Source: Candidatus Magasanikbacteria bacterium CG10_big_fil_rev_8_21_14_0_10_36_32
Lineage (GTDB): Bacteria; Patescibacteriota; Patescibacteriia; Magasanikbacterales; GWA2-37-8
Direction: 5' to 3'
DNA length: 64,000 bases
Assembly (NCBI GenBank): GCA_002778465.1
Contig: PFBV01000003.1
Coordinates: 87,736 to 151,735 of the forward strand
Under the pieces are notes generated by a model. The model saw only the letters and a program-made list of their open reading frames with translations. It was not told the DNA's origin and ran no database searches. Shown here piece by piece: positions 1-61,949 of the stretch. Made by a program: the position numbers and the translations under genes. Within the stretch, counting starts at the first letter, position 1, and each line of letters begins with the position of its first letter.

Positions 1-2824
1 GTCCGCCTTCCGGACCCAATTCAATTACCCAATCACAATTTTTAATAATATCCAAATTATGTTCAATTATCACCACACTATTACCCTTATCCACCAACCT
101 TTCCAAAACCTGTAATAAACGATTAATATCCTCAAAATGCAAACCTGTAGTCGGTTCATCTAAAATATAAAGTGTTTTGCCGGTGGAAGCGCGAGCCAAT
201 TCAGTGGCTAATTTAATACGTTGTGCCTCACCACCGGACAAAGTGGTGGCTGATTGTCCCAATTGAACATAACCTAAGCCAACTTCGCGTAAAATATTTA
301 ATTTAACAGCAATAGGCTGCTGATTAGAAAAAAATTTAAAAGCTTCTTCCACTGTCATATTTAAAACATCGGAAATATTTTTGCCTTGATAATGAACTTC
401 CAAAGCTTCCTGATTATATCGTGAACCATTACAATCATTACAAACCATAAAAACATCGGCTAAAAATTGCATCGGAATTCTGGTATAACCTTCGCCGGCG
501 CAAGCTTCACAACGTCCGCCGCCTTTAACATTAAAACTGAATTTTCCAGCATCATAACCTCTCATTTTGGCTTCCGGCAAACTGGCAAACAAATCTCTGA
601 TTAAAGTAAAAATACCGGTATAAGTGGCAGGATTGGATCGTGGAGTGCGTCCAATCGGAGATTGATCAATGGCAATTACTTTATCAATATTAGTCAATCC
701 GACAATTGATTTATGTTCACCGGGATCTTCTTTGCTGCGATAAAAATGCTTAGATAAAGCCCTGCCTAAAATTTCAATAATTAAAGATGATTTACCGGAA
801 CCGGAAACACCGGTAACACAAACCAATTTGGCTAAAGGAATTTCCACATCTATATTTTTCAGATTAAACGCCTTTGCGCCAATAATTTTTATTTTTTTAT
901 CAGCAACGATTTTGCGTTTTTTATCGGTTTCCTGATTTCTTTTTAAATCACAACCAACCTGTAAACGTCCGGTTAAATATTCACCGGTCAAAGATTGTTT
1001 ATTCTTTTTAATTTCAGGCAAAGTTCCTTTGGCCACTATTTCTCCACCATAAACACCTGCGCCCGGACCGACATCAACCAAATAATCAGCTTCTTTCATA
1101 ATGGCCGCGTCATGTTCAACCACAATAACCGTGTTTCCTAAATCTCTCAAATATTTTAAAGTTTCAATTAATTTTTGATTATCGCGCGGATGCAAACCAA
1201 CCGACGGTTCGTCTAAAATATAAACCACACCGGTTAACCCCGAAGTCAACTGAGTCGCCAAACGAACACGAGTCACCTCACCTCCGGACAACGTATTCAT
1301 TGCTCTATCCACGCTTAAATAACGCAAACCAACTCGTTCCAAATTATCCACTCGTTGGTATAATTCTTTAATAATTGGAATAATTATTGAATCTTTTTTA
1401 TCTGTTTTAATATTTTTACCCAAAATTCCCTTAAAAAATTCCAAACTTTCTTCAATGTCCATAGCCGCAACTTCAGCAATGTTTTTGTTTTTAACCATCA
1501 CTGCTAAAGATTCTTTTTTTAATCGCTTTCCGCCGCATAAACTGCAAACCTGTTCGCGCATATATTGTTCAATCTCCCGACAAACATAATCTGAATCTGT
1601 AGATAAGTGACGCTGGCGCAAATCTTCAATCACACCGACAAAAGTTGTTTTTTTATTCAGTTCAATTTCATAGGTTTCTTTTCCTGTCCCATTTAAAATT
1701 AAATTTACAGTAGTCGACGGCATTTTGTTAATCGGCATATCCATAGAAAAATTATGCCGTTTAGCCACCGCGCTTAAAACTTTTTGATACCAACTTTGAT
1801 TACCTGTAATTCTAGTCCACGGCTGGATTGCTCCTTCAGCCAAAGTCAAACGCGGATTTGGAATAACCAAATCTGGCACTACTTCCATAGTAATACCCAA
1901 ACCGGTACATCGCGGGCAAGCGCCCAATGGGCTGTTAAAACTAAAATTACGAATATCCACCGGCGGCATCATATAACCGCACTTTGGACACAAACCAAAA
2001 GTTGAGAATGTATAAACTTTATCTTTTACCGCCACATGAACCAATCCATTGCTTAAATCCAAAGCTATTTCCACCATCTTGCTCGGATCTTGTTTTTTTA
2101 TATCATCAATAATGCCGGTTATTAAATCAACTTGATAATTTTTTTTCGGATTAAAATCATAATCAACTAAATCGGCAACTTTTACCACATCTCCATCAAT
2201 CCACACTGATTTGAAACCGGATTTTTCAACTTTATCCAACAAATCATCCGGATCAACAATATCGTTTTTAATTAATGGCGACAAAACAAAAATCTGTTTA
2301 TTTTTTCTGGCTAAATCTCTGATTTGTTCTATAATTTCTCCGGATGTATGGCTAACAATTTTTTCATCGCATTCCGGACAAAATCTTTCACCGGCTCTGG
2401 CATACAACAGACGCAAATAATCATAAATTTCCGTTACTGTACCAACGGTTGAACGCGGATTTTGTGTAGAAACACGCTGATCAATGGCAATGGTCGGAGA
2501 TAAACCGTCAATTCCATCAACATCCGGCTTGTCGCGAACTTCCATAAATTGCCGCGCATACGAAGAAAGCGACTCAGCATAACGTCGCTGGCCTTCAGCA
2601 TAAATAGTGTCAAACGCCAAACTTGATTTGCCGGAACCTGACAAACCGGTAATTACTACCAATTTATTCTTGGGAATATCAATATTGACGTTCTTCAGGT
2701 TATGAGCCCTAGCGCCTCTGATTATTATCTTGTCTTTATTTTTTAAATTATTTACTCCAAACCGATTGGAGGAATTTGATGTGGAAGTTACTTGTGATTT
2801 CTTTTTAATTTTTTTTGCCGGCAT
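1..2824 (-). CDS. uvrA: Excinuclease ABC subunit A (UvrA). The C-terminal few residues run off the window start; the start codon is at 2824.
   Basis: Reverse-strand translation reads MPAKKIKK...LVVITGLSGSGKSSLAFDTIYAEGQRRYAESLSSYARQF, and later the ABC signature LSGGEAQRIKLA and TLYILDEPTTGLHFEDI. The frame is open over about 940 codons. The ORF track shows only short spurious plus-strand ORFs here. Confidence 0.9.
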   Translation of the reverse strand, partial: MPAKKIKKKSQVTSTSNSSNRFGVNNLKNKDKIIIRGARAHNLKNVNIDIPKNKLVVITGLSGSGKSSLAFDTIYAEGQRRYAESLSSYARQFMEVRDKPDVDGIDGLSPTIAIDQRVSTQNPRSTVGTVTEIYDYLRLLYARAGERFCPECDEKIVSHTSGEIIEQIRDLARKNKQIFVLSPLIKNDIVDPDDLLDKVEKSGFKSVWIDGDVVKVADLVDYDFNPKKNYQVDLITGIIDDIKKQDPSKMVEIALDLSNGLVHVAVKDKVYTFSTFGLCPKCGYMMPPVDIRNFSFNSPLGACPRCTGLGITMEVVPDLVIPNPRLTLAEGAIQPWTRITGNQSWYQKVLSAVAKRHNFSMDMPINKMPSTTVNLILNGTGKETYEIELNKKTTFVGVIEDLRQRHLSTDSDYVCREIEQYMREQVCSLCGGKRLKKESLAVMVKNKNIAEVAAMDIEESLEFFKGILGKNIKTDKKDSIIIPIIKELYQRVDNLERVGLRYLSVDRAMNTLSGGEVTRVRLATQLTSGLTGVVYILDEPSVGLHPRDNQKLIETLKYLRDLGNTVIVVEHDAAIMKEADYLVDVGPGAGVYGGEIVAKGTLPEIKKNKQSLTGEYLTGRLQVGCDLKRNQETDKKRKIVADKKIKIIGAKAFNLKNIDVEIPLAKLVCVTGVSGSGKSSLIIEILGRALSKHFYRSKEDPGEHKSIVGLTNIDKVIAIDQSPIGRTPRSNPATYTGIFTLIRDLFASLPEAKMRGYDAGKFSFNVKGGGRCEACAGEGYTRIPMQFLADVFMVCNDCNGSRYNQEALEVHYQGKNISDVLNMTVEEAFKFFSNQQPIAVKLNILREVGLGYVQLGQSATTLSGGEAQRIKLATELARASTGKTLYILDEPTTGLHFEDINRLLQVLERLVDKGNSVVIIEHNLDIIKNCDWVIELGPEGG

Positions 2825-2894: not shown

Positions 2895-4589
2895 TCAATA
2901 GCCGGAACATTTAACATCATTTGACGCCGGTGCGTCATTTTCAAGCTGCATTTTTGTCTTAAGTATATTAATTTTTCCGGTTTGTTTTACAGGAATACAA
3001 ACACCCCATTTACCTTCCCATAATTTATTTGCTGACAAATCCCATAACTGACATTCTTTCTCACATACTCCTGGGGTAAGAATTTGATAATTTGGACCGC
3101 AATTCATCAAACCTATACATTCAGAAGCGGAATTACATTCAGCTGTATCAGAACACCAATCACCATCTTCCAAAACACCTCCGACGCATCTATCTTTGTT
3201 ACAATTATCCGATTTACAATCGCTCGCTTTGCCGCAAGGAGAACCATTGAGACCATTGGAACAAAGCGGAACATAAGCGTCTTCAACACATTTCAAACCG
3301 GCGGCGCAATCTGACACATTATAGCATTGTGAACCATTTTTTCCGTCGGAACAAAAACCAATTTCAGTTTTAGCCCAACATTTAAAAGCTGCCGTCACAC
3401 CTTTCATCTTTACACAATGACCTTCAGCGCACTGATTTTTATTTACATCACACATTTCTCCGTTTTGCAATGCTTCCGCTTTAGGCAAACAAACACCATT
3501 ATGATTGGCAAAAAAATCAACAAATTCATCAACCGCATATTCTACAATTCCACTCGCTGTTGAAACTACTATTTTTCCGCAACTGATTGAATCAGCCGAC
3601 GCGTCCGATACTTTATCGCAAGCCCAAACGGCTCCTACAGCAGTAGCGCCCCATTTCAAACCTTTAAATGAAAAAACTTTGGAACCAACATTTTTCAAAA
3701 CAGCGGTTGCGGCTTGACTTTTTGAATAATTAGCCAATTCTTTAGCTGGAATTTTAGTAGCAAAGCTTAAAATTTTAGTTCCGCCTTTACTCAAAACTGT
3801 TTTTGCTCCATTTGCCAATTCTTTTCCGATTGACGCTTCTGCGCCAGCTCCAATTGACGCGGCTCCGCCAACAAATGACACGGAAACTGTTGATATATAT
3901 TCAGCCAGAACAGCGCAAGCTCCTTGTCTGTCTGAATCATAACCGATAGTAAAACAAATATGCTGACCATCTGCTTCGCAAGCGGTTTTTGTTTCACCGC
4001 CACGCGGATCACAGTAATCACCGGCGGCAACTGACAATTCCGGTTCTGCCCGAAGCATCCAAATTTGCGGTAAACGCAAATTAACCAAAGCCGGATTAAT
4101 ACTATTTAAAATATTGTAAGACATAAAAGCGATAAATAATCCTATTACCGCTCCGCCAATTCTCTTTTTTGACTGACCAATCACTTCACTGCTGCCAGCT
4201 GAAGTAATCCACTGAACTCCTGAAACAATAATCATCACCACTGCCAAAACTCCCAAAGCCACCAAAGCATAATTATAAATAGTTTTTATATAATCACCAA
4301 GATTAGCAAAAGAAGATTTTCCGCCAAAAGAAATACTGGTTTTTGTGGCTCGGCCAGCTAAACATTTTCCCCACTCTCCCGTACAAGGTTCTTCTTGAAT
4401 CCAACCGTCGCTGGCTAATAATTCACCAGCCATTTCTTGTCTGGCTTGAACACAATCCTCTTTTTTCCAACATAAATAATTTTCGGACTGTATTATAGAA
4501 GATCCTGTTTGCGCCAAAACTAAGTCAACTGTTAAGGGAAACAAAATAACACTAAACACCAAAAAAAAGAATACTTTTTTAAAATACAT
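2895..4589 (-). CDS. Secreted Cys-rich protein (564 aa). It has a signal peptide, a two-helix membrane hairpin (aa 99-170) resembling a VirB2/TrbC-type T4SS pilin core, an Ala/Gly-rich middle, and C-terminal tandem Cys-rich (EGF-like) modules. It is a paralog of the 61950..63233 protein.
   Basis: N-terminal hydrophobic signal MYFKKVFFFLVFSVILFPLTVDLVLA. The hairpin IYNYALVALGVLAVVMIIVSGVQWITSAGSSEVIGQSKKRIGGAVIGLFIAFMSYNILNSINP is about 50% identical to the equivalent segment of the 61950 gene. The C-terminus has repeated C-x(4-6)-C-x(3-8)-C spacing (for example CGKASDCKSDNCNKDRC). The middle region is GC-rich, which produces spurious internal ORFs. Confidence 0.75.
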   Translation of the reverse strand: MYFKKVFFFLVFSVILFPLTVDLVLAQTGSSIIQSENYLCWKKEDCVQARQEMAGELLASDGWIQEEPCTGEWGKCLAGRATKTSISFGGKSSFANLGDYIKTIYNYALVALGVLAVVMIIVSGVQWITSAGSSEVIGQSKKRIGGAVIGLFIAFMSYNILNSINPALVNLRLPQIWMLRAEPELSVAAGDYCDPRGGETKTACEADGQHICFTIGYDSDRQGACAVLAEYISTVSVSFVGGAASIGAGAEASIGKELANGAKTVLSKGGTKILSFATKIPAKELANYSKSQAATAVLKNVGSKVFSFKGLKWGATAVGAVWACDKVSDASADSISCGKIVVSTASGIVEYAVDEFVDFFANHNGVCLPKAEALQNGEMCDVNKNQCAEGHCVKMKGVTAAFKCWAKTEIGFCSDGKNGSQCYNVSDCAAGLKCVEDAYVPLCSNGLNGSPCGKASDCKSDNCNKDRCVGGVLEDGDWCSDTAECNSASECIGLMNCGPNYQILTPGVCEKECQLWDLSANKLWEGKWGVCIPVKQTGKINILKTKMQLENDAPASNDVKCSGY

Positions 4590-4593
4590 AATA

Positions 4594-5349
4594 TTACAAT
4601 TTAAAATCTTTTAACAATGTTTCCCATGTTGAAAATAACATAGCGCCTTCAATTTTGTTGCCATTAACAAAAAAAGTCGGCGTTCCTTTTTTAATTCCAT
4701 ATTTAACGCCGATTGAATAATCTTTCTTAACTTCAATTTCACCTCGGCGGCTTTGTAAGCAATCTGACATTCTACTTTTATCTAAACCGAATTGATTAAT
4801 CAATACATCAACATCAGTATCGGAAAAATTTTCACCAATCATTTCTTGATTGCTAAAAAACAAATCATGCGCTAACCAAAACGCTCCCTGTTCATTTACA
4901 CAAGAAGCTACCGCGGCCAACCGATTAGTTCCGGGATGAACCGATTCCATTGGAAAATCACGAATAATCCATTTTATTTTATAACCATACTTATTTATCA
5001 ACTTTTGCATCTCGGAATATTGTCCTTTACAAATCGGACACTTAAAATCTATAAATTCAACAATTACAAAACTTGCATTTTGATTTCCCAAAAAAGGATC
5101 ATCATCTGTTTCTAATTCTTGACGTGCCGCTTGAATTTCCGGCGATTCAACTATCTGATTCAACGCCTGTTGATTCATTTGCTGTTCCAAAATATCGCCA
5201 TGTCCGGATTTTATCGCTCTCCAATAATTATATCCGAGCGCGCTTAAGGACAAAATTACAGCCGCCAACAAACAAATGGCCGCTATTATGGTAATACCCC
5301 ACCATGTTTTATACCAAACTTTTAACCCCGTAACAGGTTCCATATTCAA
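4594..5349 (-). CDS. Membrane-anchored DsbA-like thiol:disulfide oxidoreductase (thioredoxin fold, CPIC active site).
   Basis: An N-terminal TM helix is followed by FVIVEFIDFKCPICKGQ, a CxxC motif in DsbA/thioredoxin context. It lies 4 nt upstream of the Cys-rich secreted protein on the same strand. Confidence 0.75.
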   Translation of the reverse strand: MNMEPVTGLKVWYKTWWGITIIAAICLLAAVILSLSALGYNYWRAIKSGHGDILEQQMNQQALNQIVESPEIQAARQELETDDDPFLGNQNASFVIVEFIDFKCPICKGQYSEMQKLINKYGYKIKWIIRDFPMESVHPGTNRLAAVASCVNEQGAFWLAHDLFFSNQEMIGENFSDTDVDVLINQFGLDKSRMSDCLQSRRGEIEVKKDYSIGVKYGIKKGTPTFFVNGNKIEGAMLFSTWETLLKDFKL

Positions 5350-5423
5350 TTAAAATTAGCCAAAAATTCACAAAACTTCAATTGTCAATATTATATCATA
5401 TATATAAGGAACAGACAATCTTG

Positions 5424-10030: not shown

Positions 10031-10060
10031 ATACCCTCGCAAAAGCGAGGGTATTTTTTA
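10031..10060. terminator. Bidirectional rho-independent terminator (for pspC on the + strand and rnpB on the - strand).
   Basis: ataccctcgc-aaaa-gcgagggtat hairpin flanked by T-runs on both strands. Confidence 0.7.
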
Positions 10061-10061
10061 T

Positions 10062-10434
10062 TCATAGCTATAAGCCGAATTCTGTTCCCCCCGAAAGGGT
10101 GATAATCATTTCTCTAGTTGCATCATTACTGACACAATCATCAGCGAGCGAACTTTTTATCCCGACGTGAAGTCGGGACTCTGCTCTTGCACGCGAGTAA
10201 GGATTTTGCCGTTTCACCTTCAATCTTCTTTTCCCCCGATCAAAGTTAAGCTGTTATTCCTGATTAAACAAGAACATGGGATTTAGCTTTCCTTAGCCTT
10301 TCGGCTTTGGACGTTTCTGTTCGCACCTCTTGGATCGCTCCAGACGGGCGTTACCCGCTACTTTTGCCACAAATGAGCGGCTGCGTGTTCGGACTTTCCT
10401 CCCTAATAAATTAGGACGATTATCCACTATGAAC
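10062..10434 (-). ncRNA. rnpB: RNase P RNA (bacterial type A-like).
   Basis: The minus-strand read contains GGAGGAAAGTCCGAACAC (P4 5' strand) ... GGTAACGCCCG ... ACAGAAACG ... ACAGAATTCGGCTTATAGC (P4 3' strand ACAGAAnnCGGCTTA). The P1 helix pairs gttcatag with ctatgaa. A perfect promoter places the TSS at about 10434. Confidence 0.85.
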
Positions 10435-10440
10435 AGGTCT

Positions 10441-11713: not shown

Positions 11714-13129
11714 ATGAAACGTTTTGAACTGTTTTTTGCCCTCATTCAACTGCCTATTGACTACGCCATGCTGGTGTTAGCCGGTTTTACTGCTTACGCT
11801 TTGCGTTTTACCGAAACAGTTCAATCTATCCGTCCTGTTATCTTTGATTTAGTATGGTCCGCATATTGGCCGGCGTTATTTATTGTAGCATTAGGATGGC
11901 TGATAATTATGGCCGCTTCCGGACTTTATTCCATTAATCCAAACCGTAAACTGGCCGTTGAGTTGACCCGTGTTTTTTTTGCTTGCGCCGCCGGATTTGC
12001 CGCTATTACCATTTTCGTATTTTTCACTTTGCATAAATTTGACTCCAGATTCTTGGTTTTGGCCGGTTGGATATTTGCCGTTATTTATGTCAGTGTAAGC
12101 CGTATACTAATTCGGCTGATTAAAATATATTGTTATAAACATAACTTCGGACAAAGAAAAACAATTTTAATCGGACAACCGTCAGCAGTAGAACAATTAA
12201 AGAAAATTTTTATAAATCGCCCGAGTTTAGGTTATACTTTGCTTGGTGTTTATAATAATTTTAATGCAACCGCCGCCGAAATGATTTTACAAACAATGCC
12301 TGATGAAATAATTTTTGCCGATCCGCCGGTTAATGATGAAAATACTCTGCAAGCCGCTCATTTTGCCAACGAACATCATATCACTTTTAAATACTCAGCT
12401 GATTTTTTTGCCACCATTTCAACCAATCTGGCGGTTTCCACTGTCGGTGGAATTCCAATAATTGAAATACGGCGAACATCACTAACTGGCTGGGGAAGAA
12501 TTTTTAAAAGAATAATGGATATTATTTTCAGCTCTTTGTTAATTATTTTATTTTCACCTTTTTACTTAATAATCTCAATAATTATTTTATTGGAAACAGG
12601 ACGTCCGATTTTTTACAAAAATAAACGCGTCGGCCAAGCCGGAAAAAACTTTTTTGTGTTAAAATTCCGTTCTATGTATCAAAAAGATTGTACTGAACAA
12701 TCAGGACAAAATAATGGCCAAGCTTTATTAAAAGAAGAAGAATTAATAAAAGAACAAAGCATTAAAGATGGGCCTGTTTATAAAATAAAGAATGACCCAC
12801 GCATCACTGCTTTCGGACGATTGATTCGTAAATGGAGTTTGGATGAAATACCTCAATTCTTCAATGTTTTAAAAGGAGAAATGAGTTTAGTTGGACCACG
12901 CCCTCATCAACCGCGAGAAGTGGAAAAATATCAATCTTGGCAACGCAATGTGTTAACTATCAAACCGGGTATTACCGGCTTAGCTCAAATTTCCGGTCGA
13001 AGCGATCTGACTTTTGATGAAGAAGCGCGGTTGGATATTTTTTATATTGAACATTGGGGTTCGTTGATGGACAGCATAATTTTAATTAAAACACCATTTG
13101 TGGTACTAACAAAAAAAGGAGCATTATAA
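11714..13129 (+). CDS. Polyprenyl-phosphate sugar phosphotransferase (bacterial sugar transferase, WbaP/CpsE-like) that initiates polysaccharide synthesis.
   Basis: N-terminal multi-TM region plus the C-terminal conserved block [15 protein letters not shown]...[34 protein letters not shown]. Confidence 0.85.
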   Translation: [471 protein letters not shown]

Positions 13130-13132
13130 AAC

Positions 13133-14254
13133 ATGAAAATTGCTTTAGTACACGACTATTTATCACAAGATGGAGGGGCAGAACGAGTTCTTAAGGCCTT
13201 CCATGAAATTTGGCCGGAAGCGCCGATTTTTGTTTTATTTCACGATAAGAAAAAAATAAATTATTTAAACCCAGAAAATATCCGCCAATCATTCTTGTCA
13301 AAATTACCATTAGTTAAATCTCTATTCCAATGGTATTTACCATTAATGCCGGCCGCCACCGAACATCACCATTTAAAAAATTTTGATTTGGTTTTATCAT
13401 CCACCAGTGCTTTTGCTAAAGGCGTAATCACCGCTCCGGAAGCTTTACATGTTTCCTATTGCCACACTCCACCGCGATATCTGTGGGCCGATGCGCATGA
13501 TTATTTAGAAAATTTAAAACGGGGTTCGTTGATTAATGCTATATTAAATAACACAATTCATAAACTGCGGTTATGGGATAAAATGAGCGCGGACCGAGTT
13601 GATTACTTTATTGCTAATTCAAAAACCGTCCAACAACGCATTCAAAAATATTATCGCCGCTTAAGCGACGTGATTTATCCTCCGGCTGACACTGATAAAT
13701 TTTATATTTCTCCTAAAATAGAAAATTATTTCGTAGCTGGCGGACGACTTGTCCCGTATAAACGTCTAGATTTAACTGTAAAAGTATTTAACCGTTTAAA
13801 AATTCCGCTCAAAATATTCGGCACCGGTCCGGAATTGCCTTATCTCAAAAAAATAGCCAAACCAAATATTGAATTTTTAGGACGAATAAGCGAAGCTGAA
13901 AAAGCTCGACTATTAAGTCGCTCTTTGGCTTTTATTCATCCGCAACTTGAAGATTTTGGCATTACACCGATTGAAGCAATGGCTTCGGGAAGACCGGTAA
14001 TTGCTTACGGTGTTGGCGGAGCCACTGAAACTGTTATTCCCAATGAAACAGGCGTTTTTTTCCGCGAACAAACCTGGGAATCATTGTTGGATACTATCAT
14101 TAATTTTGAACCGCAAAATTGGGATAGCGCCAAAATACGCGAACACGCACTACAATTTTCTTTAGATAATTTTAAAAATAATATTCAAAAATACGTTTTA
14201 GACAGATATGAAGAATTTAAAAAAGGAATGAATCAAGAACCGTTGATAAAATAA
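13133..14254 (+). CDS. Glycosyltransferase family 4.
   Basis: GT4 C-terminal signature region ...IHPQLEDFGITPIEAMASGRPVIAYGVGGATETV. Confidence 0.8.
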   Translation: MKIALVHDYLSQDGGAERVLKAFHEIWPEAPIFVLFHDKKKINYLNPENIRQSFLSKLPLVKSLFQWYLPLMPAATEHHHLKNFDLVLSSTSAFAKGVITAPEALHVSYCHTPPRYLWADAHDYLENLKRGSLINAILNNTIHKLRLWDKMSADRVDYFIANSKTVQQRIQKYYRRLSDVIYPPADTDKFYISPKIENYFVAGGRLVPYKRLDLTVKVFNRLKIPLKIFGTGPELPYLKKIAKPNIEFLGRISEAEKARLLSRSLAFIHPQLEDFGITPIEAMASGRPVIAYGVGGATETVIPNETGVFFREQTWESLLDTIINFEPQNWDSAKIREHALQFSLDNFKNNIQKYVLDRYEEFKKGMNQEPLIK

Positions 14255-14292
14255 TTTAAAAAATTTAAATTTGAATATAAAATAATACGATT

Positions 14293-15456
14293 ATGAATAT
14301 CGGCATTGATATTCGTCCAATGATGACCTCGCCGCGAACCGGGGTTGGCGAATACACATTTGAACTTCTTGACGCCGTGTTTAAAATTGACCAAAACAAT
14401 CAATATTTTTTGTATTACAACGCTTCCAAACAAACTTCAACCAATCTGCCAACTTGGAATCAACCCAATGTACATTATGTCATCACTCATTATCCAAATA
14501 AATTATTTAATAGCGCCATTAAATTATTAAGCCGACCACGACTGGACAAAATCATCTCTAAAAAATGCAACTTAACAAACGGCCTGGATTGTTTTTATTC
14601 ACCAAATTTAAATTTTGTTTCACTATCGTCAAAAACTAAATATATTTTAACCATACATGATTTATCTTTTGAATTTTTTCCAGAATTTTTTTCAAAAAAA
14701 CAAATATTATGGCATGGAGCGGTAAATCCCAAAAAACAATGCCAGCGCGCTGATACTATTTTAGCTCCGTCTGAAAATACCAAGCGTGATATTATGAATT
14801 ATTATAAAATTGAAGAAAAAAAAATAAAAGTGATTTATCCGGGTTTATCACCGATATTTAATTCAATCAACAATGAACAGCTGTCAACAAATAAGGAGTC
14901 GGTAAAACAAAAATATAACCTGCCGAATCACTATATTTTATTTTTAGGCACGATTGAACCGAGAAAAAATATTGTCGGACTAATTGAAGCTTTTGAAAAA
15001 GTTTATTCCAATTTGCCAATTCCCCACCATTTAATTATTGCCGGAGCCAACGGTTGGAGTAATAAAGAAATTTTCAATCGAGCCGCTTACTCTCCAATTA
15101 AAGATCATATAAAATTTATCGGTTATATAAATTCCGAAGATAAACCGGCTTTATATTCCAACGCCTCACTATTCATTTATCCCAGTTTTTACGAGGGCTT
15201 TGGTTTTCCGGCACTTGAAGCAATGGCAATGGGCGCGCCGGTAATTACTTCCAATCGTTCGTCGCTTTTAGAAGTAGCCGGCGATGCCGCATATTTGATA
15301 AATCCTCTGCAAACCAACTCAATAATTCAAGCAATTTTAGATATTTTAAACAAACCAGAATTAAGAGCGCGATTAATTAAAAAAGGCCGCGAACGGGCTC
15401 AATTATTTTCCTGGGAAAAAGCGGCTAAAGAATGGATTACAACAATTACTAATTAA
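14293..15456 (+). CDS. Glycosyltransferase family 4.
   Basis: [40 protein letters not shown] is the EX7E GT4 motif. Confidence 0.8.
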
Positions 15457-15457
15457 T

Positions 15458-16597
15458 ATGCACATTGGAATAGACGCTAGAATGTACGGCTCAAAACAAG
15501 GCGGGCTTGGTCGTTACATTCAACAACTTATAAAACATCTTGAAAAAACAGACACGAAACATAATTTCGTAATTTTTTTACGTCAAGAAAACTGGCATGA
15601 ATATGAACCAGCCAATCATAATTTTAAAAAAGTTCTAGCTGATATTCCGTGGTACGGCTGGCGCGAACAACTGCTTTTGCCAAAAATTATCAAAAAAGAA
15701 AAAATTAATTTGATGCATTTTCCACATTGGAATATTCCTATTTTTTATAATCAACCTTTCGTGGTAACCATTCATGATTTGCTTCTACTCCATTATCCAA
15801 CTCGTAAAGCCAGTACTCTCAGTCCGATTTCTTATTTTTTAAAAAATATCGCCTTTCGTTTTGCTTTATGTCACGCCATAAAAAAATCAAAAAACATAAT
15901 CACTCCGTGTAAATTTACAAAAAATGATATCTTAAAACATTTTGATGTCCCTGCAAAAAAAATTAATGCCGTCCATCTGGGGATTTCTAATTTTCAAATA
16001 GATTCCCTACCTACCGACAAACAGGATTCAAATTCAACCAAAATAACAAAAAAATATAGCATCACTAAACCTTATATTTTATATGTTGGCGTTGCCTATC
16101 CGCATAAAAATTTAGAAGGATTAATGCGCGCTTGGAAAATTTTTGAAGAAAAATACAATGATAATTATCAGCTTATTTTGGCTGGCAAAAAAAATTATTT
16201 TTATAAACAATTAATACAAGATAAACAATTACAAAATAAAGACATAATTTTTACCGATTTTGTTCCTGACAACGAACTGCCGGAATTGTATAAAAATGCT
16301 TCACTTTACGCATTTCCCAGTTTTTATGAAGGTTTCGGTTTACCGCCATTAGAAGCCATGTCATATGATATACCGATTGCATCTTCGGACCGTTCTTGTT
16401 TGCCTGAAATTTTACAAAATGCGGCTATTTATTTTAATCCGGAAAAACCTGAAGAAATAGCCAAAATCTTACATTATCTATTGACTGATATTGCCACTCG
16501 CGATCGCTTAATTACCAACGGCCGACAATTAATTAAAAAATACTCTTGGGACAACACCGCCAAAAGAACTTTAGAAATATATCAAGATAGTGTATAA
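15458..16597 (+). CDS. Glycosyltransferase family 4.
   Basis: [35 protein letters not shown]. Contiguous with the two upstream GT4 genes. Confidence 0.8.
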   Translation: MHIGIDARMYGSKQGGLGRYIQQLIKHLEKTDTKHNFVIFLRQENWHEYEPANHNFKKVLADIPWYGWREQLLLPKIIKKEKINLMHFPHWNIPIFYNQPFVVTIHDLLLLHYPTRKASTLSPISYFLKNIAFRFALCHAIKKSKNIITPCKFTKNDILKHFDVPAKKINAVHLGISNFQIDSLPTDKQDSNSTKITKKYSITKPYILYVGVAYPHKNLEGLMRAWKIFEEKYNDNYQLILAGKKNYFYKQLIQDKQLQNKDIIFTDFVPDNELPELYKNASLYAFPSFYEGFGLPPLEAMSYDIPIASSDRSCLPEILQNAAIYFNPEKPEEIAKILHYLLTDIATRDRLITNGRQLIKKYSWDNTAKRTLEIYQDSV

Positions 16598-16668
16598 TAT
16601 AGAGAGTAAACTTATTTTGTCTGAATTTTACTCAAACTTGATAAAAAAATAATTCTAATTTTCTGCTC

Positions 16669-19164
16669 ATGTCAGCGATAAAAAGACCACAATTGCGTTC
16701 CTGTACTTTTTGCCACAAGCCGGGACACAATAAAGCCACTTGCCCTGATTATAATTCCGCTCCAATATTGCCAGCCAAAAAACCGGCGGTCAAAGTTGTA
16801 ATTCACGGGCGAATACCATTCTCAACACAATCTCCTCACCTGCTTAATCTAAAAACTCAAAAAAATCCTTGGCTTAAAATTACTTCATCCTCTCCTGAAA
16901 AAAATACTTCTCTTTTTCAACATTATCACGAAGTAAAAGAAACAAAAAAAATTTTAAATAATCAATTTGAAAAAAAATTACCTTCTAATTTACCAAAAAT
17001 AAATTTGCGAAAAAAAATAAATAATTTACGTGACATTATAATAAAAAAATTAAAACGCAAATATAATTCTTCCGGATTAAATTTATCATCTGAACTTCCA
17101 AAAACAAAAAGAGAAAATAATTCCATAAAAAAAATAATCTCAAACTATTTAACTTCCTGGAAAACATCTGGGCGTCCGGCCTTTGTTTTGGCTATGGCAA
17201 TTTTAATATTTTTAGTTTTACCGATTCAAGCACACACCTTTTATCAAAATCTTAAGTCCACAACTCAAGCCGTGGCCGCTAATGGCACTGAAGGATTTTT
17301 AGCTCTCCAAGAATCAACCGCCGCCATAATGACAGCCGACTTGTCCGGGGCAGCGAACTCAACCAACAGCGCTTTAAATAAATTAAACAGTGCTGTTGAT
17401 ATTTTAAATACCAATCATAAATTACTTCTTAAAATTGCCTCCGTCGTGCCAATTGTCAGCCGAGAAGTACAAAGCCGGCAAAATATCATTACCGCCGGAC
17501 AAAAAATCGCACAAGGAAATTCCTTTTTAATTATGGGAATTAATTCCAGTCAAAAAAATCCTGAAGATTCATTAACACGGAGAATTTCCATTCTGACAAA
17601 ATATCTTCAAGTTGCCTTGCCTAATTATCAGGCTGCTTTAAAAGATTTAAGCAATATTGATTCAACAGTTTTACCACTGCAATACCAATCACTTTTTAAT
17701 GATTTTCGATTATTATTTGCCGGCGTTTTGAATGATTTGGATAATTTATCTGATTTGGGACAAACAATTCAAGAGGTTTTCGGAGGACAAGGTCTGCGTC
17801 GCTATCTTTTAATATTTCAAAATCCTCATGAAATTCGTCCAACCGGAGGTTTTATTGGAAGTTTCGCCATTATGGACATTAAGGATGGAAAAGTTACTAA
17901 TTTAGAAGTTCCAGCCGGAGGTTCATATGATTTACAAGGTCAACTTGATCAATTTGTTGAACCGCCAACACCATTGTTGTTAGCTAATAAACGTTGGGAA
18001 TTTCAAGACGCAAATTGGTTTCCTGATTTTCCGACCAGTGCTGAAAAAATGTTATGGTTTTATCGCCACTCTCGCCAATTAACCGCTGATGGCGTAATCG
18101 CTGTTAATGCAACCGTATTAGAACGGTTATTATCTATAATCGGTCCTGTAACAGATGAGGAACGTTCATTAACCCTGTCCGCCAATAATGCTATTGCCAC
18201 CATTCAAACAGTGGTGGAAGAAGGACCAGAAAAACAACAACGCAAACCTAAACAAATTTTAACCGATTTGGCCCCAAAACTTCTTCAACAAACAACTGAA
18301 ATCAAACCCGATCAGGCTTTGCCTTTGCTTTTAAGTATTTCAGAAGCTTTAAAACAAAAAGAAATTCAGGCTTATTTTACCGACAATGACGCTCAAAAAA
18401 CAGTGTCTTCTTTTGGTTGGGCCGGAAAAATTTTACAAACACGTGAAAATCAAGATTATCTTTTTATAGTTAACACTAATATCCGCGGGGAAAAAAGCGA
18501 TGCTGAAATTAAACAAACAATCAGTCATCAAGCGGTAATACAAGAAAATGGAGAAGTGATAAATATGGTAACAATCACTCGTGAACATTCCGGAATTCGC
18601 GGAGAAAAACTTTATGGAGCGACTAATATTGATTATCTAAGAATTTATGTGCCTGCAGGAAGTGAATTGATTTCAGTCAGCGGTTTTTCGTGGCCTGACG
18701 AAAAAACTTTTCGCGTGCCGGACAAGTGGACGACTAAAGATGAATTTATTCAAACTATTGAAAAAGAAATCAAAATTGACGACAATAGCGGCACTCGCGT
18801 CACTTCAGAATTTGGAAAAACCGCTTTCGGTAATTGGATTATTACGGAACCGGGTCAAATTTCTCAAATTCAATTTACCTACATCCTCCCTTTTAAAGTA
18901 TTCAACACTGAGGAAAATTTAAAATTATTATCATTTAAAAAAATATTGAATTCAACAAATCAATCCGCGCATTACCAATTGGCGGTTCAACGTCAATCTG
19001 GTGTGGAAACAAATTTTGATAGTCAAATAATTTTTCCAAATACATGGAAAACCACATGGAATGACGGAGAAAATTCTTTACCTGCTCTTAATGGTATGAC
19101 TATTACCGCTCATCCTTTAGAGTATGACGGAATTTGGAGTTTGTTAACACAAAAAGAAAAATAA
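16669..19164 (+). CDS. Large membrane-anchored hypothetical protein (831 aa). It has an N-terminal CCHC zinc-knuckle-like motif, a Lys/Asn-rich cytoplasmic segment, one TM helix and a ~640-aa extracytoplasmic domain.
   Basis: CTFCHKPGHNKATC has the C-x2-C-x4-H-x4-C spacing. The TM segment is RPAFVLAMAILIFLVLPI. It sits directly downstream of the glycosylation cluster. Confidence 0.6.
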   Translation: MSAIKRPQLRSCTFCHKPGHNKATCPDYNSAPILPAKKPAVKVVIHGRIPFSTQSPHLLNLKTQKNPWLKITSSSPEKNTSLFQHYHEVKETKKILNNQFEKKLPSNLPKINLRKKINNLRDIIIKKLKRKYNSSGLNLSSELPKTKRENNSIKKIISNYLTSWKTSGRPAFVLAMAILIFLVLPIQAHTFYQNLKSTTQAVAANGTEGFLALQESTAAIMTADLSGAANSTNSALNKLNSAVDILNTNHKLLLKIASVVPIVSREVQSRQNIITAGQKIAQGNSFLIMGINSSQKNPEDSLTRRISILTKYLQVALPNYQAALKDLSNIDSTVLPLQYQSLFNDFRLLFAGVLNDLDNLSDLGQTIQEVFGGQGLRRYLLIFQNPHEIRPTGGFIGSFAIMDIKDGKVTNLEVPAGGSYDLQGQLDQFVEPPTPLLLANKRWEFQDANWFPDFPTSAEKMLWFYRHSRQLTADGVIAVNATVLERLLSIIGPVTDEERSLTLSANNAIATIQTVVEEGPEKQQRKPKQILTDLAPKLLQQTTEIKPDQALPLLLSISEALKQKEIQAYFTDNDAQKTVSSFGWAGKILQTRENQDYLFIVNTNIRGEKSDAEIKQTISHQAVIQENGEVINMVTITREHSGIRGEKLYGATNIDYLRIYVPAGSELISVSGFSWPDEKTFRVPDKWTTKDEFIQTIEKEIKIDDNSGTRVTSEFGKTAFGNWIITEPGQISQIQFTYILPFKVFNTEENLKLLSFKKILNSTNQSAHYQLAVQRQSGVETNFDSQIIFPNTWKTTWNDGENSLPALNGMTITAHPLEYDGIWSLLTQKEK

Positions 19165-19215
19165 AAATTTAATTATAAAAATTTTCCGCCATCAAGCGGA
19201 ATTCCGCCAAAAGCG

Positions 19216-27745: not shown

Positions 27746-28708
27746 ATGTCAGAGCCCACTTATCGCCAGGCGTTATTTCAGGCTTGGCGTTTGGTTTGGC
27801 ACAATAAAATCTTGTGGATTTTTGGTCTTTTATCCATGTTATTCGCCGGTTCTTTTGGCGCGGATAATTTTATTGGAAAATTACTGACCGCCCTATCCGA
27901 TGGAAAAGCCACTTTTTTGGCAAATTTTAAACTACGTTCTTTCCTAAATTTCACTCCAATTAATGCTATTGGTTTGGTTTGGTTGGCTGGTATTATGATA
28001 GCGATTGGTTTATTTATTATTTTTGTATCTATTTGTTCGCGCGCTTCCCTATTAATCGCCACTGCTGAATTCTATCGCCATAAAATAATCCCAAAATTTT
28101 CTTTGATTTGGCACAGTAGTATAAAATATTTTTGGCAAATTTTATCAATTGAAATGATAAAAAAAATTTTATTGATAACAATCCTCATAATTTTTACCGC
28201 CATCTGGCAACAACTTCCTAATTTAAATTCTTTATGGCAAACTCCGCTGGCTTTTCTAATTCTGGGTGTAATAATTTGTCTGTCTTTAATAATTATTTCA
28301 GTGGCAATTTATGCTTCCGGATATGCGGTTATTGATAAAAAATCTTTACTCACCAGCATAACCAGCGGTTGGAAATTATTTAGACGCCATATTTTAGTAT
28401 CGTTAGAAATCAGTTTAATTTTATTATTGATTGATTTATTAGTTTTGTTTTTACTCTTAGGAGTTTTCTCTGTTGCTTTCGTCCCCTCTTTGCTTATTTG
28501 GATAGTAGCGGCCACTGTGGGCAATTATGTCATGGCCACTATTGGATTTTTGCTTGGTTTATTTATTTTAGTAATTTTAATTGCTTTTGTCGGCGCGATC
28601 TATAATACTTTCACCACTAGCGTGTGGATGTATATGTTTATGAAAATGCACCATGAAAATATCTTCAGCCGAATATTTCATCATGTGGGCAATTTTTTCA
28701 AGAAATAA
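27746..28708 (+). CDS. Polytopic membrane protein (hypothetical).
   Basis: 320 aa with about 6 hydrophobic helices. It ends 3 nt before pilB. Confidence 0.5.
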   Translation: MSEPTYRQALFQAWRLVWHNKILWIFGLLSMLFAGSFGADNFIGKLLTALSDGKATFLANFKLRSFLNFTPINAIGLVWLAGIMIAIGLFIIFVSICSRASLLIATAEFYRHKIIPKFSLIWHSSIKYFWQILSIEMIKKILLITILIIFTAIWQQLPNLNSLWQTPLAFLILGVIICLSLIIISVAIYASGYAVIDKKSLLTSITSGWKLFRRHILVSLEISLILLLIDLLVLFLLLGVFSVAFVPSLLIWIVAATVGNYVMATIGFLLGLFILVILIAFVGAIYNTFTTSVWMYMFMKMHHENIFSRIFHHVGNFFKK

Positions 28709-28711
28709 ATT

Positions 28712-30427: not shown

Positions 30428-30455
30428 TTTTAATAATTTTTTTAAATTTTTTAAT

Positions 30456-60029: not shown

Positions 60030-60039
60030 TACATAATAT

Positions 60040-61941: not shown

Positions 61942-61949
61942 ATTTCAAT

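What the first reader, a model, noticed from the sequence alone, without database searches (positions are those of the whole stretch)
2895..5349. Duplicated two-gene module: DsbA-like oxidoreductase followed by a secreted Cys-rich protein with a VirB2/TrbC-like pilin hairpin (copy 1)
On the minus strand, a CPIC-containing DsbA-like gene (4594..5349) is followed 4 nt later by a 564-aa exported Cys-rich protein. The core of that protein (nt about 4080-4295) is a helix-loop-helix hydrophobic hairpin: YNYALVALGVLAVVMIIVSGVQ-WITSAGSSEVIGQSKKR-IGGAVIGLFIAFMSYNIL. The same gene pair, in the same order, recurs at 61273..63233 on the other strand. Its hairpin is about 50% identical (YNFALIAISVIAVVVLIIQGV-RIIISAGGPEKSAAYKG-IAGAVIGLFIAWGSYVIL). 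The architecture is two TM-like helices separated by a short polar loop, within a signal-peptide protein. This is what is seen in VirB2/TrbC-type conjugative/T4SS pilins and the Gram-positive T4SS-pilin-like family. Here the hairpin is embedded in large multi-domain proteins with dedicated thiol-oxidoreductase partners. This may be a lineage-specific surface appendage or adhesin system rather than a classical pilin.
Basis: partly seen in the sequence, partly recalled or inferred. Interest (0 to 1): 0.8.

Follow-up and report, generated by a model that had tools for sequence, protein, structure and literature searches.

The report
Pilin-hairpin surface proteins with DsbA-like partners
An ultra-small groundwater bacterium (Candidatus Magasanikbacteria) carries two conserved gene pairs. 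In each pair a DsbA-type folding helper sits directly upstream of a large exported protein built around the membrane hairpin of a type IV secretion pilin. One such protein carries a cysteine-rich head and the other a cell-wall-cutting enzyme, so this is an undescribed variant of a known pilin family, not a new kind of system.

Summary
Both gene pairs are at the stated coordinates, and the two hairpins are 56% identical.

- **Hairpin.** It is homologous to the short VirB2-like pilins (Pfam PF18895) that lie in T4SS-linked arrays in other Patescibacteria (hhalign 99.5%, E 1.4e-22). Relatives are already labelled "pilin" by NCBI.
- **Not classical pilins.** The proteins are 564 and 427 aa. They sit in housekeeping synteny (secG | pair – uvrA; clpB-like … pair – radA). 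No VirB4, VirB6-like or PrgI gene lies within 10 kb in 57 related loci.
- **Pairing.** The DsbA-like gene is immediately upstream in 46 of 46 testable copy-1 loci and 6 of 6 copy-2 loci.
- **Active site.** It decays across the family: 26 CxxC, 21 Cxx[S/T] (at least 10 switches). All seven Magasanikbacteria copy-2 partners, the window's included, have no catalytic cysteine, so copy 2 is not an oxidoreductase.
- **Copy-2 C-termini.** At one orthologous locus they are swapped peptidoglycan hydrolase domains.

Most likely these are pilin-derived surface proteins displaying variable heads, each with a dedicated folding factor or chaperone. Pilus incorporation remains untested.

Verdict: new variant of a known kind, moderate interest.

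The parts
4594..5349 (-). Copy 1 partner: membrane-anchored DsbA/BdbD-type thioredoxin-fold protein (251 aa from TTG; gene callers start at an ATG two codons in, giving 249 aa). Active site CPIC is at aa 104-107 (nt 5029-5040).
   Evidence: Thioredoxin_4 88.8 bits and DSBA 44.3 bits. One N-terminal hydrophobic segment at aa 13-43. Closest solved relatives are 3gyk, 6eez and BdbD 3eu3. An orthologue lies immediately upstream of the long pilin gene in 46/46 testable loci.
2895..4589 (-). Copy 1 long pilin-domain protein (564 aa). Layout: signal peptide aa 1-26; 4-Cys cap aa 35-95; VirB2-like hairpin aa 97-164 (nt 4098-4301); juxtamembrane motif INPALVNLRLPQ aa 164-176 (nt 4062-4100); low-confidence linker aa 177-345; Cys-rich head aa 346-564.
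   Evidence: PF18895 26.0 bits, TrbC 16.5 bits. 100% identical to PIT88377.1/COU29_01135. AF2 model has pLDDT 71, with the cap, hairpin and aa 350-500 confident. Segment conservation: hairpin 63%, motif 79%, C-terminus 21-26%.
5390..5418 (-). Promoter-like site (TTGTCT-17-TATAAT with TG extension) upstream of the copy-1 pair, in the divergent intergenic region shared with secG.
   Evidence: This is a consensus match only, and the regional count is not above shuffles. There is no terminator-like site between the two genes.
61273..61941 (+). Copy 2 partner: membrane-anchored thioredoxin-fold protein with no catalytic cysteine (NSKDS at aa 75-79, nt 61495-61509). The cis-Pro loop is retained.
   Evidence: Thioredoxin_4 50.2 bits. 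Alignment to CxxC relatives. The same [NT][SD]xxS replacement occurs in all seven Magasanikbacteria loci, the window plus six relatives.
61950..63233 (+). Copy 2 long pilin-domain protein (427 aa). Layout: signal peptide aa 1-24; N-terminal domain aa 25-133; hairpin aa 134-202 (nt 62349-62555); IDPNLTQFKSLKI motif; C-terminal Peptidase_M15_4 domain aa 331-421 (nt 62940-63212), with LHLCGLAVD and DAMHFEYH motifs.
   Evidence: PF18895 23.1 bits; Peptidase_M15_4 45 bits against a cut-off of 25. AF2 pLDDT 76, with the hairpin above 90. Family members carry M15_4, C39_2, M15, VanY or Glucosaminidase domains.
59358..61269 (+). Two genes co-oriented and tightly packed upstream of the copy-2 pair: a 223-aa TM protein of unknown function (no significant family hit) and a 409-aa TM-anchored protein with weak TolB/PD40 beta-propeller hits. 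They are probably in the same operon.
   Evidence: The same order (ClpB-like, ~220-270 aa, ~410 aa, Trx-fold, hairpin protein, RadA) is seen in 6/6 related loci.

Best explanation
Each module is a two-gene operon. It makes (i) a membrane-anchored, extracytoplasmic DsbA/BdbD-family protein and (ii) a 'long pilin'.

Proposed architecture of the long pilin:
- After signal-peptide cleavage it sits in the membrane through a VirB2-type helix-loop-helix hairpin.
- The basic loop faces the cytoplasm and both ends face outside.
- It therefore exposes a small conserved 4-Cys cap and a large, fast-evolving head on a flexible linker.
- The head is a disulfide-rich binding domain in copy 1 and a peptidoglycan hydrolase in copy 2.

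Proposed role of the partner:
- It is a dedicated folding factor for this client.
- It acts as an oxidase/isomerase where it has CPxC or CPx[S/T].
- It acts as a pure chaperone where both cysteines are gone (copy 2), as F-plasmid TraF does.

Proposed role of the hairpin: I think it is more than an anchor. It and its juxtamembrane motif are the most conserved parts of the protein. They most likely dock the protein to the T4SS, or into or onto its VirB2-like pilus, as a specialised minor or tip subunit. That would present an adhesin head and a wall-cutting enzyme to the host cell.

What is shown and what is inferred:
- Shown: homology of the hairpin, the domain content, the conserved pairing and synteny, and the active-site states.
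- Inferred: topology, client-chaperone relationship, surface display.
- Speculative: pilus or T4SS docking.
For: Hairpin homology:
- hhalign 99.5%, E 1.4e-22 against 20 short pilins.
- Those short pilins lie in arrays followed by a conserved ~530-aa protein of unknown family (VirB6-like by position only), PrgI (PF12666) and a weak TraC/VirB4 N-domain match (E 2.7e-4, below cut-off).
- 64/66 family members hit PF18895.

Topology:
- Signal peptide plus two hydrophobic helices, with a conserved KKR at the start of helix 2. AF2 predicts the helices.

An exported, disulfide-bonded head:
- The Cys count after the hairpin is even (8-30) in the copy-1-type ORFs.

Pairing:
- The DsbA-like gene is directly upstream on the same strand, with a gap of -37 to +136 nt, in 46/46 loci and in 6/6 copy-2 loci.

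The partner is not simply an oxidase:
- 26 CxxC versus 21 Cxx[ST], with at least 10 changes on an NJ tree and no difference in client Cys content.
- All seven Magasanikbacteria copy-2 partners lack catalytic Cys but keep the fold.

The hairpin is more than an anchor:
- Identity is 63% for the hairpin and 79% for the INPALVNLRLPQ motif, against 21-26% for the C-terminus.

Precedent within true T4SS arrays:
- 31 of 170 pilin-domain ORFs there are extended (up to 984 aa), mostly with Cys-rich ectodomains.

A T4SS exists in these genomes:
- The six named genomes that carry the locus, and the four listed CG10 Magasanikbacteria assemblies, are VirB4-positive in Table S1 of PMC12102498.
- That paper also reports radA and recG near T4SS loci in class ABY1. 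Copy 2 is followed by radA.
Against: - No VirB4, VirB6-like or PrgI homologue, and no short pilin, lies in the 64-kb window or within 10 kb of 57 long-form loci. The neighbours are housekeeping genes (secG, uvrA, clpB-like, radA).
- Neither window protein reaches the Pfam gathering score.
- Ectodomains of 60-110 aa before and about 220-390 aa after the hairpin would be hard to fit on every subunit of a VirB2-type helical filament.
- No experiment exists on any member of this subfamily.
Confidence: 0.45

Rival explanations
1. Exapted anchor. The pilin hairpin has been recruited purely as a two-pass membrane anchor. The proteins are membrane-tethered ecto-proteins: a cell-wall hydrolase for the organism's own wall remodelling or for attacking the host wall, and a Cys-rich binding protein. 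They work independently of the T4SS, and the DsbA-like genes are ordinary operon-linked folding factors.
For: - Housekeeping synteny, with no T4SS gene within 10 kb in any locus.
- Large domains on both sides of the hairpin.
- Copy-2 heads are ordinary peptidoglycan hydrolase families.
- The genes are single-copy, vertically inherited orthologues, not variable arrays.
Against: - A mere anchor is not expected to be the most conserved part of the protein. The hairpin is 63% identical, the probably cytoplasmic loop and helix 2 68%, and the juxtamembrane motif 79%, against 21-26% for the heads.
- The GxQWITSGG...KKRI signature is shared with T4SS-linked short pilins.
- Every named carrier genome checked has VirB4.
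Confidence: 0.35
2. Pro-protein or carrier. The hairpin serves as an export and membrane-staging module. The invariant post-hairpin motif (INPALVNLRLPQ in copy 1, INPxLTxFKSLKI in the copy-2 family) is a processing site. Cleavage there releases the head as a soluble secreted effector and leaves a short pilin-like remnant. This would be analogous to the C-terminal trimming of RP4 TrbC and Ti VirB2 propilins (from established knowledge).
For: - The motif is the single most conserved segment (79%). It is specific to long forms and absent from short pilins.
- A low-confidence flexible linker follows it.
- Heads are swapped freely at one orthologous locus, as expected for cargo.
Against: - No protease gene is linked to the module.
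- No evidence of cleavage exists.
- The motif could equally be a structural elbow that packs against the conserved N-terminal cap.
Confidence: 0.1
3. Classical major pilins. The two proteins polymerise as the main subunits of a T4SS pilus.
For: Homology to VirB2-like pilins. No short pilin gene was seen in the window or in related loci.
Against: - They are four to five times the size of the short pilins of T4SS-linked arrays.
- They are unlinked to T4SS genes.
- Bulky folded domains on both termini include an enzyme.
- Only about 64 kb of a genome of probably ~0.9 Mb (if it is GCA_002773185.1; identity not confirmed) was examined, so short pilins may lie elsewhere.
Confidence: 0.05

Closest known systems
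VirB2-like T4SS pilins of Patescibacteria (Pfam PF18895 T4SS_pilin; arrays next to virB4; essential array in Southlakia epibionticum). Sources: PMC12102498, PMC12857230.
   Same: - Signal peptide, two hydrophobic helices and a short basic loop.
- Shared GxQWITSGG...K..I..A..GL signature.
- Profile-profile probability 99.5%.
- Same phylum, and the carrier genomes are VirB4-positive.
   Different: - 427-564 aa instead of about 100-150 aa.
- A conserved 4-Cys cap before the hairpin, and an INPxL motif, linker and large head after it.
- Single-copy orthologues in housekeeping synteny, not variable arrays.
- No T4SS gene within 10 kb.
- Always preceded by a DsbA-like gene, which the arrays lack.
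Thioredoxin-fold assembly factors of F-type T4SS: TraF (no CxxC) and TrbB (CxxC isomerase/chaperone). Sources: PMC11315126 and Elton et al. 2005 (the latter from memory).
   Same: Extracytoplasmic thioredoxin-fold proteins serve a VirB2-family pilus system. There is an active form and a cysteine-less form, which parallels copy 1 (CPIC) and copy 2 (NSKDS).
   Different: - No sequence membership. PF13728 TraF scores E 0.11 for copy 1 and nothing for copy 2.
- The proteins here are DsbA/BdbD-type (Thioredoxin_4) with an N-terminal TM anchor.
- They are encoded next to one client gene, not inside a T4SS cluster.
Dedicated DsbA paralogues for pilus or pseudopilus subunits: Salmonella SrgA-PefA, Vibrio TcpG, Bacillus BdbDC-ComGC, Actinomyces MdbA (all from established knowledge, not tested here).
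   Same: A DsbA-family oxidoreductase is needed for, or encoded with, a disulfide-containing surface-filament subunit. BdbD (3eu3) is among the closest solved relatives of the copy-1 partner (E 4.5e-8).
   Different: Those enzymes keep CxxC. Here the resolving Cys was lost at least about 9 times, and both Cys are gone in the whole copy-2 lineage. This points to an isomerase or chaperone role and not plain oxidation.
Membrane-anchored peptidoglycan hydrolases of Gram-positive T4SS (PrgK of pCF10, TraG of pIP501, CwlT of ICEBs1), cited in PMC12102498.
   Same: Copy 2 and its family are membrane-tethered wall hydrolases in a monoderm lineage with a Gram-positive-type T4SS. PMC12102498 notes that most Patescibacteria with VirB2 homologues lack a recognisable VirB1.
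   Different: - Catalytic domains here are M15_4, VanX/VanY-type M15, C39_2 or glucosaminidase, not SLT/CHAP.
- The anchor is a pilin hairpin.
- The gene is not in a T4SS cluster.
Modular minor pilins of type IV pili with large C-terminal domains (e.g. TcpB, CofB; from memory).
   Same: The concept is shared: a pilin polymerisation module fused to a bulky functional head that can sit only at a tip or at low copy.
   Different: It is a different, unrelated pilin fold and machinery (type IV pili versus T4SS). This is an analogy only.

Membership tests
PF18895 T4SS_pilin / VirB2-like pilins of Patescibacteria | Significant sequence-profile relationship to the family | tested here: met
   hhalign of the hairpin alignment against 20 T4SS-linked short pilins gives 99.5% and E 1.4e-22 over 74 columns. 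64/66 family members hit PF18895 at E<=1e-3. Caveat: the two window proteins score 26.0 and 23.1 bits, just under the 26.6-bit gathering score.
PF18895 T4SS_pilin / VirB2-like pilins of Patescibacteria | Signal peptide followed by two hydrophobic helices joined by a short polar/basic loop | tested here: met
   Hydropathy segments are 1-29, 101-133 and 144-162 in copy 1, and 4-32, 139-173 and 181-203 in copy 2. AF2 helices are 97-129/134-164 and 134-168/173-202.
PF18895 T4SS_pilin / VirB2-like pilins of Patescibacteria | Small protein (about 100-150 aa) in which the hairpin is nearly the whole mature chain | tested here: not met
   564 and 427 aa. In T4SS-linked arrays 139 of 170 pilin ORFs are <=160 aa.
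PF18895 T4SS_pilin / VirB2-like pilins of Patescibacteria | Encoded in or next to a T4SS cluster (VirB6-like, PrgI/VirB3, VirB4) | tested here: not met
   HMMs built from those neighbours of the arrays find nothing in the window, or within 10 kb in the 49 long-form loci L001-L049 and in L078-L083. Pfam scans of the window ORFs tested show no T4SS ATPase or channel protein; several ORFs had no family hit. The rest of the genome could not be read.
PF18895 T4SS_pilin / VirB2-like pilins of Patescibacteria | Polymerises into, or is incorporated in, a T4SS pilus | not testable with these tools
   Monomer models and fold searches are non-discriminating. No multimer prediction or experiment was available.
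DsbA/BdbD-type thiol-disulfide oxidoreductases (Thioredoxin_4, PF13462) | Profile match above the curated cut-off | tested here: met
   88.8 bits (copy 1) and 50.2 bits (copy 2) against a cut-off of 23.2.
DsbA/BdbD-type thiol-disulfide oxidoreductases (Thioredoxin_4, PF13462) | CxxC active site: copy 1 | tested here: met
   CPIC at aa 104-107. Among orthologues, 26 are CxxC and 21 are Cxx[ST].
DsbA/BdbD-type thiol-disulfide oxidoreductases (Thioredoxin_4, PF13462) | CxxC active site: copy 2 | tested here: not met
   NSKDS aligns with CPIC. The same [NT][SD]xxS is seen in all seven Magasanikbacteria loci, window included. The more distant L048 partner has CEGC. Copy 2 is a thioredoxin-fold protein but not an oxidoreductase.
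DsbA/BdbD-type thiol-disulfide oxidoreductases (Thioredoxin_4, PF13462) | Extracytoplasmic location and a cis-Pro loop | tested here: met
   There is a single N-terminal hydrophobic segment in both proteins. The loops GTPTF (copy 1) and SAPAM (copy 2) align with the cis-Pro loop. Location is inferred from the sequence.
DsbA/BdbD-type thiol-disulfide oxidoreductases (Thioredoxin_4, PF13462) | A re-oxidising partner (DsbB, VKOR or BdbC) | not tested
   None appeared among the Pfam hits of the window ORFs scanned. No targeted search was made, and the rest of the genome was not available.
F-type T4SS TraF/TrbB thioredoxin-fold assembly factors | Sequence membership (PF13728 TraF or a TrbB family) | tested here: not met
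   TraF scores E 0.11, 12.7 bits against a cut-off of 23 for copy 1, and there is no hit for copy 2. This is a functional analogy only.
LAS/M15 metallopeptidases (Peptidase_M15_4), copy-2 head | Profile match above the cut-off and metal-ligand motifs | tested here: met
   45 bits against a cut-off of 25, at aa 331-421. LHLCGLAVD (aa 331-339) and DAMHFEYH (aa 415-422) are read directly from the sequence; assigning them as His/Asp/His zinc-ligand motifs rests on general knowledge of LAS/M15 enzymes and was not tested here. Enzyme activity is not testable here.

The most novel reading that the evidence does not exclude
In Magasanikbacteria and related ABY1 Patescibacteria, the VirB2-type pilin hairpin may act as a general carrier. 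It would mount folded cargo (a disulfide-rich adhesin head, and interchangeable peptidoglycan hydrolases) on or at the tip of a T4SS pilus of a monoderm epibiont. The result would be an 'enzyme-tipped' conjugative-type pilus that binds and breaches the host cell wall. Each carrier would have its own thioredoxin-fold chaperone. That chaperone has evolved from a true DsbA-like oxidase (CxxC), through a monothiol isomerase (CxxS/T), to a redox-dead pilin chaperone (SxxS), convergent with F-plasmid TraF.
Probability: 0.2. Interest if true: 0.8.

Novelty: new variant of a known kind. Interest (0 to 1): 0.5.

Why it matters
- **Open question about the T4SS.** It is the one secretion machine shown to be essential for the epibiotic life of a cultivated patescibacterium, and what it does is unknown (PMC12857230). 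Long pilin-domain proteins carry wall hydrolases and fast-evolving Cys-rich heads. They are concrete candidates for the parts that touch and open the host envelope.
- **A possible missing component.** They may also supply the VirB1-type hydrolase that surveys reported missing from most Patescibacteria with VirB2 homologues (PMC12102498).
- **A natural evolutionary series.** The partner genes run from CxxC through CxxS/T to SxxS. This tracks a DsbA-family enzyme turning into a chaperone while staying coupled to one client, and it can be tested biochemically.
- **Annotation.** Automatic labels of 'pilin' and 'DsbA family oxidoreductase' for these genes hide both points.

Tried and rejected
- **Foldseek against the PDB**, both AF2 models: nothing at E<=0.001. 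The best hit for copy 1 was the Dickkopf Cys-rich domain at E 0.64. That fits UniRef's automatic name for this protein but is not significant.
- **PDB sequence searches:** the hairpin profile gave no meaningful hit and the copy-2 protein gave none.
- **NCBIfam:** only a sub-threshold hit to the Mycoplasma ICE pilin-like family NF045849 (20.9 bits against a cut-off of 40).
- **First locus search** with a too-diverse alignment failed. It worked with a trimmed hairpin alignment.
- **Locating virB4 near copy 2:** nothing within 8-10 kb either side in six related loci. The per-gene table (S3) of PMC12102498 is not held, so only presence or absence of VirB4 per genome could be read.
- **Does loss of the resolving Cys track the client's Cys content?** It does not (median 15 versus 14).
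- **Mobile element or plasmid origin?** I considered this and rejected it. Both modules sit in conserved chromosomal housekeeping synteny.
- **Rfam and tRNA scans** show nothing related to the modules.


Full report
**1. The observation**

The finding is accurate.

Copy 1, minus strand:
- 4594..5349 encodes a 251-aa protein with one N-terminal hydrophobic segment. It has a Thioredoxin_4/DSBA domain (88.8 and 44.3 bits) and CPIC at aa 104-107.
- Four nucleotides later, 2895..4589 encodes a 564-aa protein with a signal peptide and 32 cysteines. The quoted hairpin is at aa 105-161 (nt 4107-4277).

Copy 2, plus strand:
- 61273..61941 (222 aa, Thioredoxin_4 50.2 bits) is followed after 8 nt by 61950..63233 (427 aa), with the second hairpin at aa 144-199.

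Similarity between the copies:
- The hairpins are 32/57 identical, and 44% identical over 106 aa.
- The cross-matches have phmmer E-values near 1e-18.
- These are the only two such pairs in the window.

Two details were missed:
- The copy-2 thioredoxin-fold protein has NSKDS in place of CPIC.
- The copy-2 hairpin protein ends in a Peptidase_M15_4 domain (45 bits against a cut-off of 25).

**2. Where the window comes from**

- The window has about 35% G+C.
- Apart from some unannotated ORFs and a glycosyltransferase / surface-protein cluster, it is housekeeping chromosome. It holds RNase J, RNase P RNA, GyrA, DnaE, PheST, ThrRS, FtsH, a ClpB-like ATPase and a PilB-type T2SSE ATPase.
- uvrA runs off the left end and radA off the right end.
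- No VirB4, VirD4 or VirB6 was detected among the ORFs scanned.

**3. The hairpin is a T4SS pilin hairpin**

- Both proteins hit PF18895 T4SS_pilin just below the gathering score (26.0 and 23.1 against 26.6 bits). They have weaker hits to TrbC/VirB2 and DUF6112.
- Of 66 relatives of copy 1, 64 hit PF18895 at E<=1e-3.
- Many relatives are already named 'pilin' or 'TrbC/VirB2 family protein' by NCBI.
- A scan of one genome per species returned 77 loci:
  - L001-L049 hold long forms like the window's.
  - L050-L077 (Microgenomates, Gottesman-, Collier- and Woesebacteria and others) hold tandem arrays of 100-150-aa pilins that match the window hairpin at phmmer E 1e-5 to 1e-11.
- Those arrays are followed by a conserved ~530-aa protein of unknown family (VirB6-like by position only), a PrgI-family protein and a weak TraC/VirB4 N-domain match (E 2.7e-4, below cut-off). 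These are the T4SS pilin arrays described in PMC12102498.
- A profile-profile comparison of the long-form hairpin with 20 such short pilins gives 99.5% probability and E 1.4e-22 over 74 columns. They share a GxQWITSGG...K..I..A..GL signature.
- Homology is therefore settled by sequence.

**4. But they are not classical pilins**

*Size and layout*
- The family is 430-620 aa long.
- There are at least 555 clusters at 50% identity with E<=1e-30, within a wider pilin superfamily of about 39,000.
- The conserved core is the first ~190 residues:
  - a signal peptide;
  - a ~60-aa cap with four near-invariant cysteines (NPxCW..C..R..GW..PC..WGKCLP);
  - the hairpin;
  - an almost invariant juxtamembrane motif, INPALVNLRLPQ.
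- Mean pairwise identity is 47% for the cap, 63% for the hairpin, 79% for the motif, and only 21-26% for everything after it.

*Heads*
- Copy-1-type heads match no known domain.
- They have an even number of cysteines (8-30) after the hairpin, as expected for an exported disulfide-bonded domain.
- In the window protein, aa 350-500 fold confidently and aa 245-345 look like a flexible linker.
- Copy-2-type heads are peptidoglycan hydrolases of several unrelated families. Of 50 members, 13 carry Peptidase_M15_4, 4 C39_2, 2 VanX-type M15, 2 VanY and 1 glucosaminidase.

*Genomic context: copy 1*
- The order is RNase J, SBP_bac_5 and SecG on one strand, then divergently the DsbA-like gene, the long pilin and UvrA.
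- UvrA lies about 40 nt downstream in 42 loci.

*Genomic context: copy 2*
- The order is PGM, then divergently ClpB-like, a ~220-270-aa protein of unknown function, a ~410-aa protein with weak TolB/PD40 beta-propeller hits, the thioredoxin-fold protein, the hairpin protein and RadA, with RecG close by.
- This order holds in six of six related loci, even though the head domain differs between them.

*No T4SS linkage*
- HMMs for the VirB6-like, PrgI and VirB4-N neighbours of the arrays find nothing in the window, or within 10 kb in the 49 long-form loci L001-L049 and in L078-L083. The called genes of three further copy-2 loci (L084-L086) show none either.
- The short-pilin HMM finds no ORF under 300 aa there.
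- The genomes do have a T4SS elsewhere. Six named genomes carrying the locus, and the four listed CG10 Magasanikbacteria assemblies, are scored VirB4-positive in Table S1 of PMC12102498.
- The same paper notes that T4SS loci in class ABY1 tend to lie near recG and radA. I could not determine the distance.

**5. The partner gene**

*Pairing*
- A DsbA-like ORF lies directly upstream on the same strand in 46 of 46 copy-1-type loci that contain enough upstream DNA. The gaps are -37 to +136 nt.
- The same is true in all six copy-2 loci.
- It is absent from the short-pilin arrays.
- This is strong evidence for a dedicated functional couple.

*Active site*
- The partner is of the BdbD / S. aureus DsbA / ScsC type.
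- Its active site is not conserved. Of the 47 partners that retain the first Cys (46 related loci plus the window's copy 1), 26 have CxxC and 21 have Cxx[S/T].
- Parsimony on an NJ tree needs at least 10 changes.
- The client's cysteine content is the same in both classes.
- In the copy-2 lineage both cysteines are replaced ([NT][SD]xxS) in all seven Magasanikbacteria loci (window plus six relatives). The fold, two other cysteines and the cis-Pro loop are kept.

*Inference*
- By established thioredoxin-fold chemistry, a CxxS protein can shuffle disulfides or hold mixed disulfides but cannot donate a disulfide. An SxxS protein can only bind.
- The function preserved across the family is therefore most likely client binding (a chaperone or isomerase role), with oxidation an optional extra.
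- The nearest precedent is the F-plasmid pair TrbB (CxxC) and TraF (no CxxC) in F-pilus assembly (PMC11315126). That is a resemblance in role only, because sequence membership in TraF was tested and not met.

**6. Mechanism**

*Shown*
- Homology of the hairpin.
- The domain architecture.
- Operon-like pairing and its conservation.
- The active-site states.
- The chromosomal context.

*Inferred*
- After signal-peptide cleavage the hairpin inserts with its KKR-bearing loop inside and both ends outside. This is the VirB2 topology and follows the positive-inside rule.
- The cap and head are therefore extracytoplasmic and are handled by the co-anchored thioredoxin-fold partner.

*Committed guess (about 0.45)*
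- The hairpin is retained because it docks these proteins to the T4SS or its pilus as specialised low-copy subunits.
- They would present an adhesin-like head (copy 1) and a wall hydrolase (copy 2) to the host.
- In support, T4SS-linked arrays in other classes contain extended pilin-domain proteins. 31 of 170 ORFs are extended, up to 984 aa, and most carry Cys-rich ectodomains.
- Also in support, the hairpin, loop and juxtamembrane motif are the most conserved parts of the protein.

*Rivals*
- The main rival (0.35) is that the hairpin is now only an anchor and the proteins act independently of the T4SS. The housekeeping context favours this.
- A processing or carrier model (0.1) would explain the invariant motif.
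- A role as the major pilin is unlikely (0.05).

**7. Novelty and score**

- VirB2-like pilins of Patescibacteria, their arrays, and their essentiality in one cultivated species are published (PMC12102498, PMC12857230).
- Homologues of both window proteins are already auto-annotated as pilins.
- I found no description of the following in full-text searches:
  - the long-form subfamily;
  - its obligatory DsbA-like partner;
  - the graded loss of the partner's catalytic cysteines;
  - the in-place swapping of hydrolase heads.
- I rate this a new variant of a known kind, with interest 0.5.
- The boldest reading is cargo-bearing T4SS pili with dedicated pseudo-DsbA chaperones. I give it a probability of about 0.2, and it would deserve about 0.8 if true.

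Noticed in passing
L081-L086 versus window 61950..63233: At one orthologous chromosomal position (between the Cys-less thioredoxin-fold gene and radA), the hairpin protein carries different C-terminal domains in different genomes: Peptidase_M15_4, VanX-type Peptidase_M15, Peptidase_C39_2, or an unrecognised domain. This implies in-place domain swapping.
   Followed up: partly
window 59358..61269 (+): A 223-aa TM protein of unknown function (no significant family hit) and a 409-aa TM-anchored protein with weak TolB/PD40-like beta-propeller hits are packed between the ClpB-like gene and the copy-2 pair. They are conserved in that order in six related loci. Their function is unknown, and they may belong to the same system.
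   Followed up: partly
L050-L077, e.g. L070:10693-13437 and L073:10973-13927: T4SS-linked pilin arrays of other Patescibacteria contain very long pilin-domain proteins (up to 914-984 aa). They have 22-23 Cys in an N-terminal ectodomain and the hairpin at the extreme C-terminus. This is the mirror image of the Magasanikbacteria layout.
   Followed up: partly
window 4062..4100 (aa 164-176 of the 564-aa protein): The motif INPALVNLRLPQ just after the second helix is the most conserved stretch of the family (79% mean identity). It is absent from short pilins, and its role (elbow, docking site or cleavage site) is unexplained.
   Followed up: partly
window 27746..31622 (+): A PilB-type T2SSE ATPase (28712..30427, 409 bits) is flanked by two ORFs of 320 and 388 aa with no family hit. 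This is probably part of a type IV pilus or competence pilus locus.
   Followed up: no
window 11714..21180 (+): A surface-polysaccharide and surface-protein cluster: a Bac_transf priming transferase, three GT4 glycosyltransferases, an 831-aa DUF4012 protein and a 654-aa DUF11 protein.
   Followed up: no
window 10055..10435 (-): Bacterial RNase P class A RNA (114 bits, full length).
   Followed up: no
window 1..2823 (-) and 63289..64000 (+): uvrA runs off the left end and radA off the right end of the window. That is why neither appears in the ORF lists. Both are the conserved downstream neighbours of the two modules.
   Followed up: yes
L005, L013, L018-L021, L025, L027 and others: Many third-party MAG records titled 'uncultured Gammaproteobacteria' or 'Pseudomonadales' (and one 'Candidatus Udaeobacter', L035) carry this Patescibacteria-specific syntenic locus. 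Their organism labels are almost certainly wrong.
   Followed up: no
L016:5619-8888, L048:9716-12928, L032:17102-20117: Some relatives carry two long pilin-domain genes in tandem behind a single DsbA-like gene, or a copy-2-type pair a few kb from copy 1. The Paceibacter-like L048 partner still has CEGC, so it may resemble the ancestral state before the two modules diverged.
   Followed up: no
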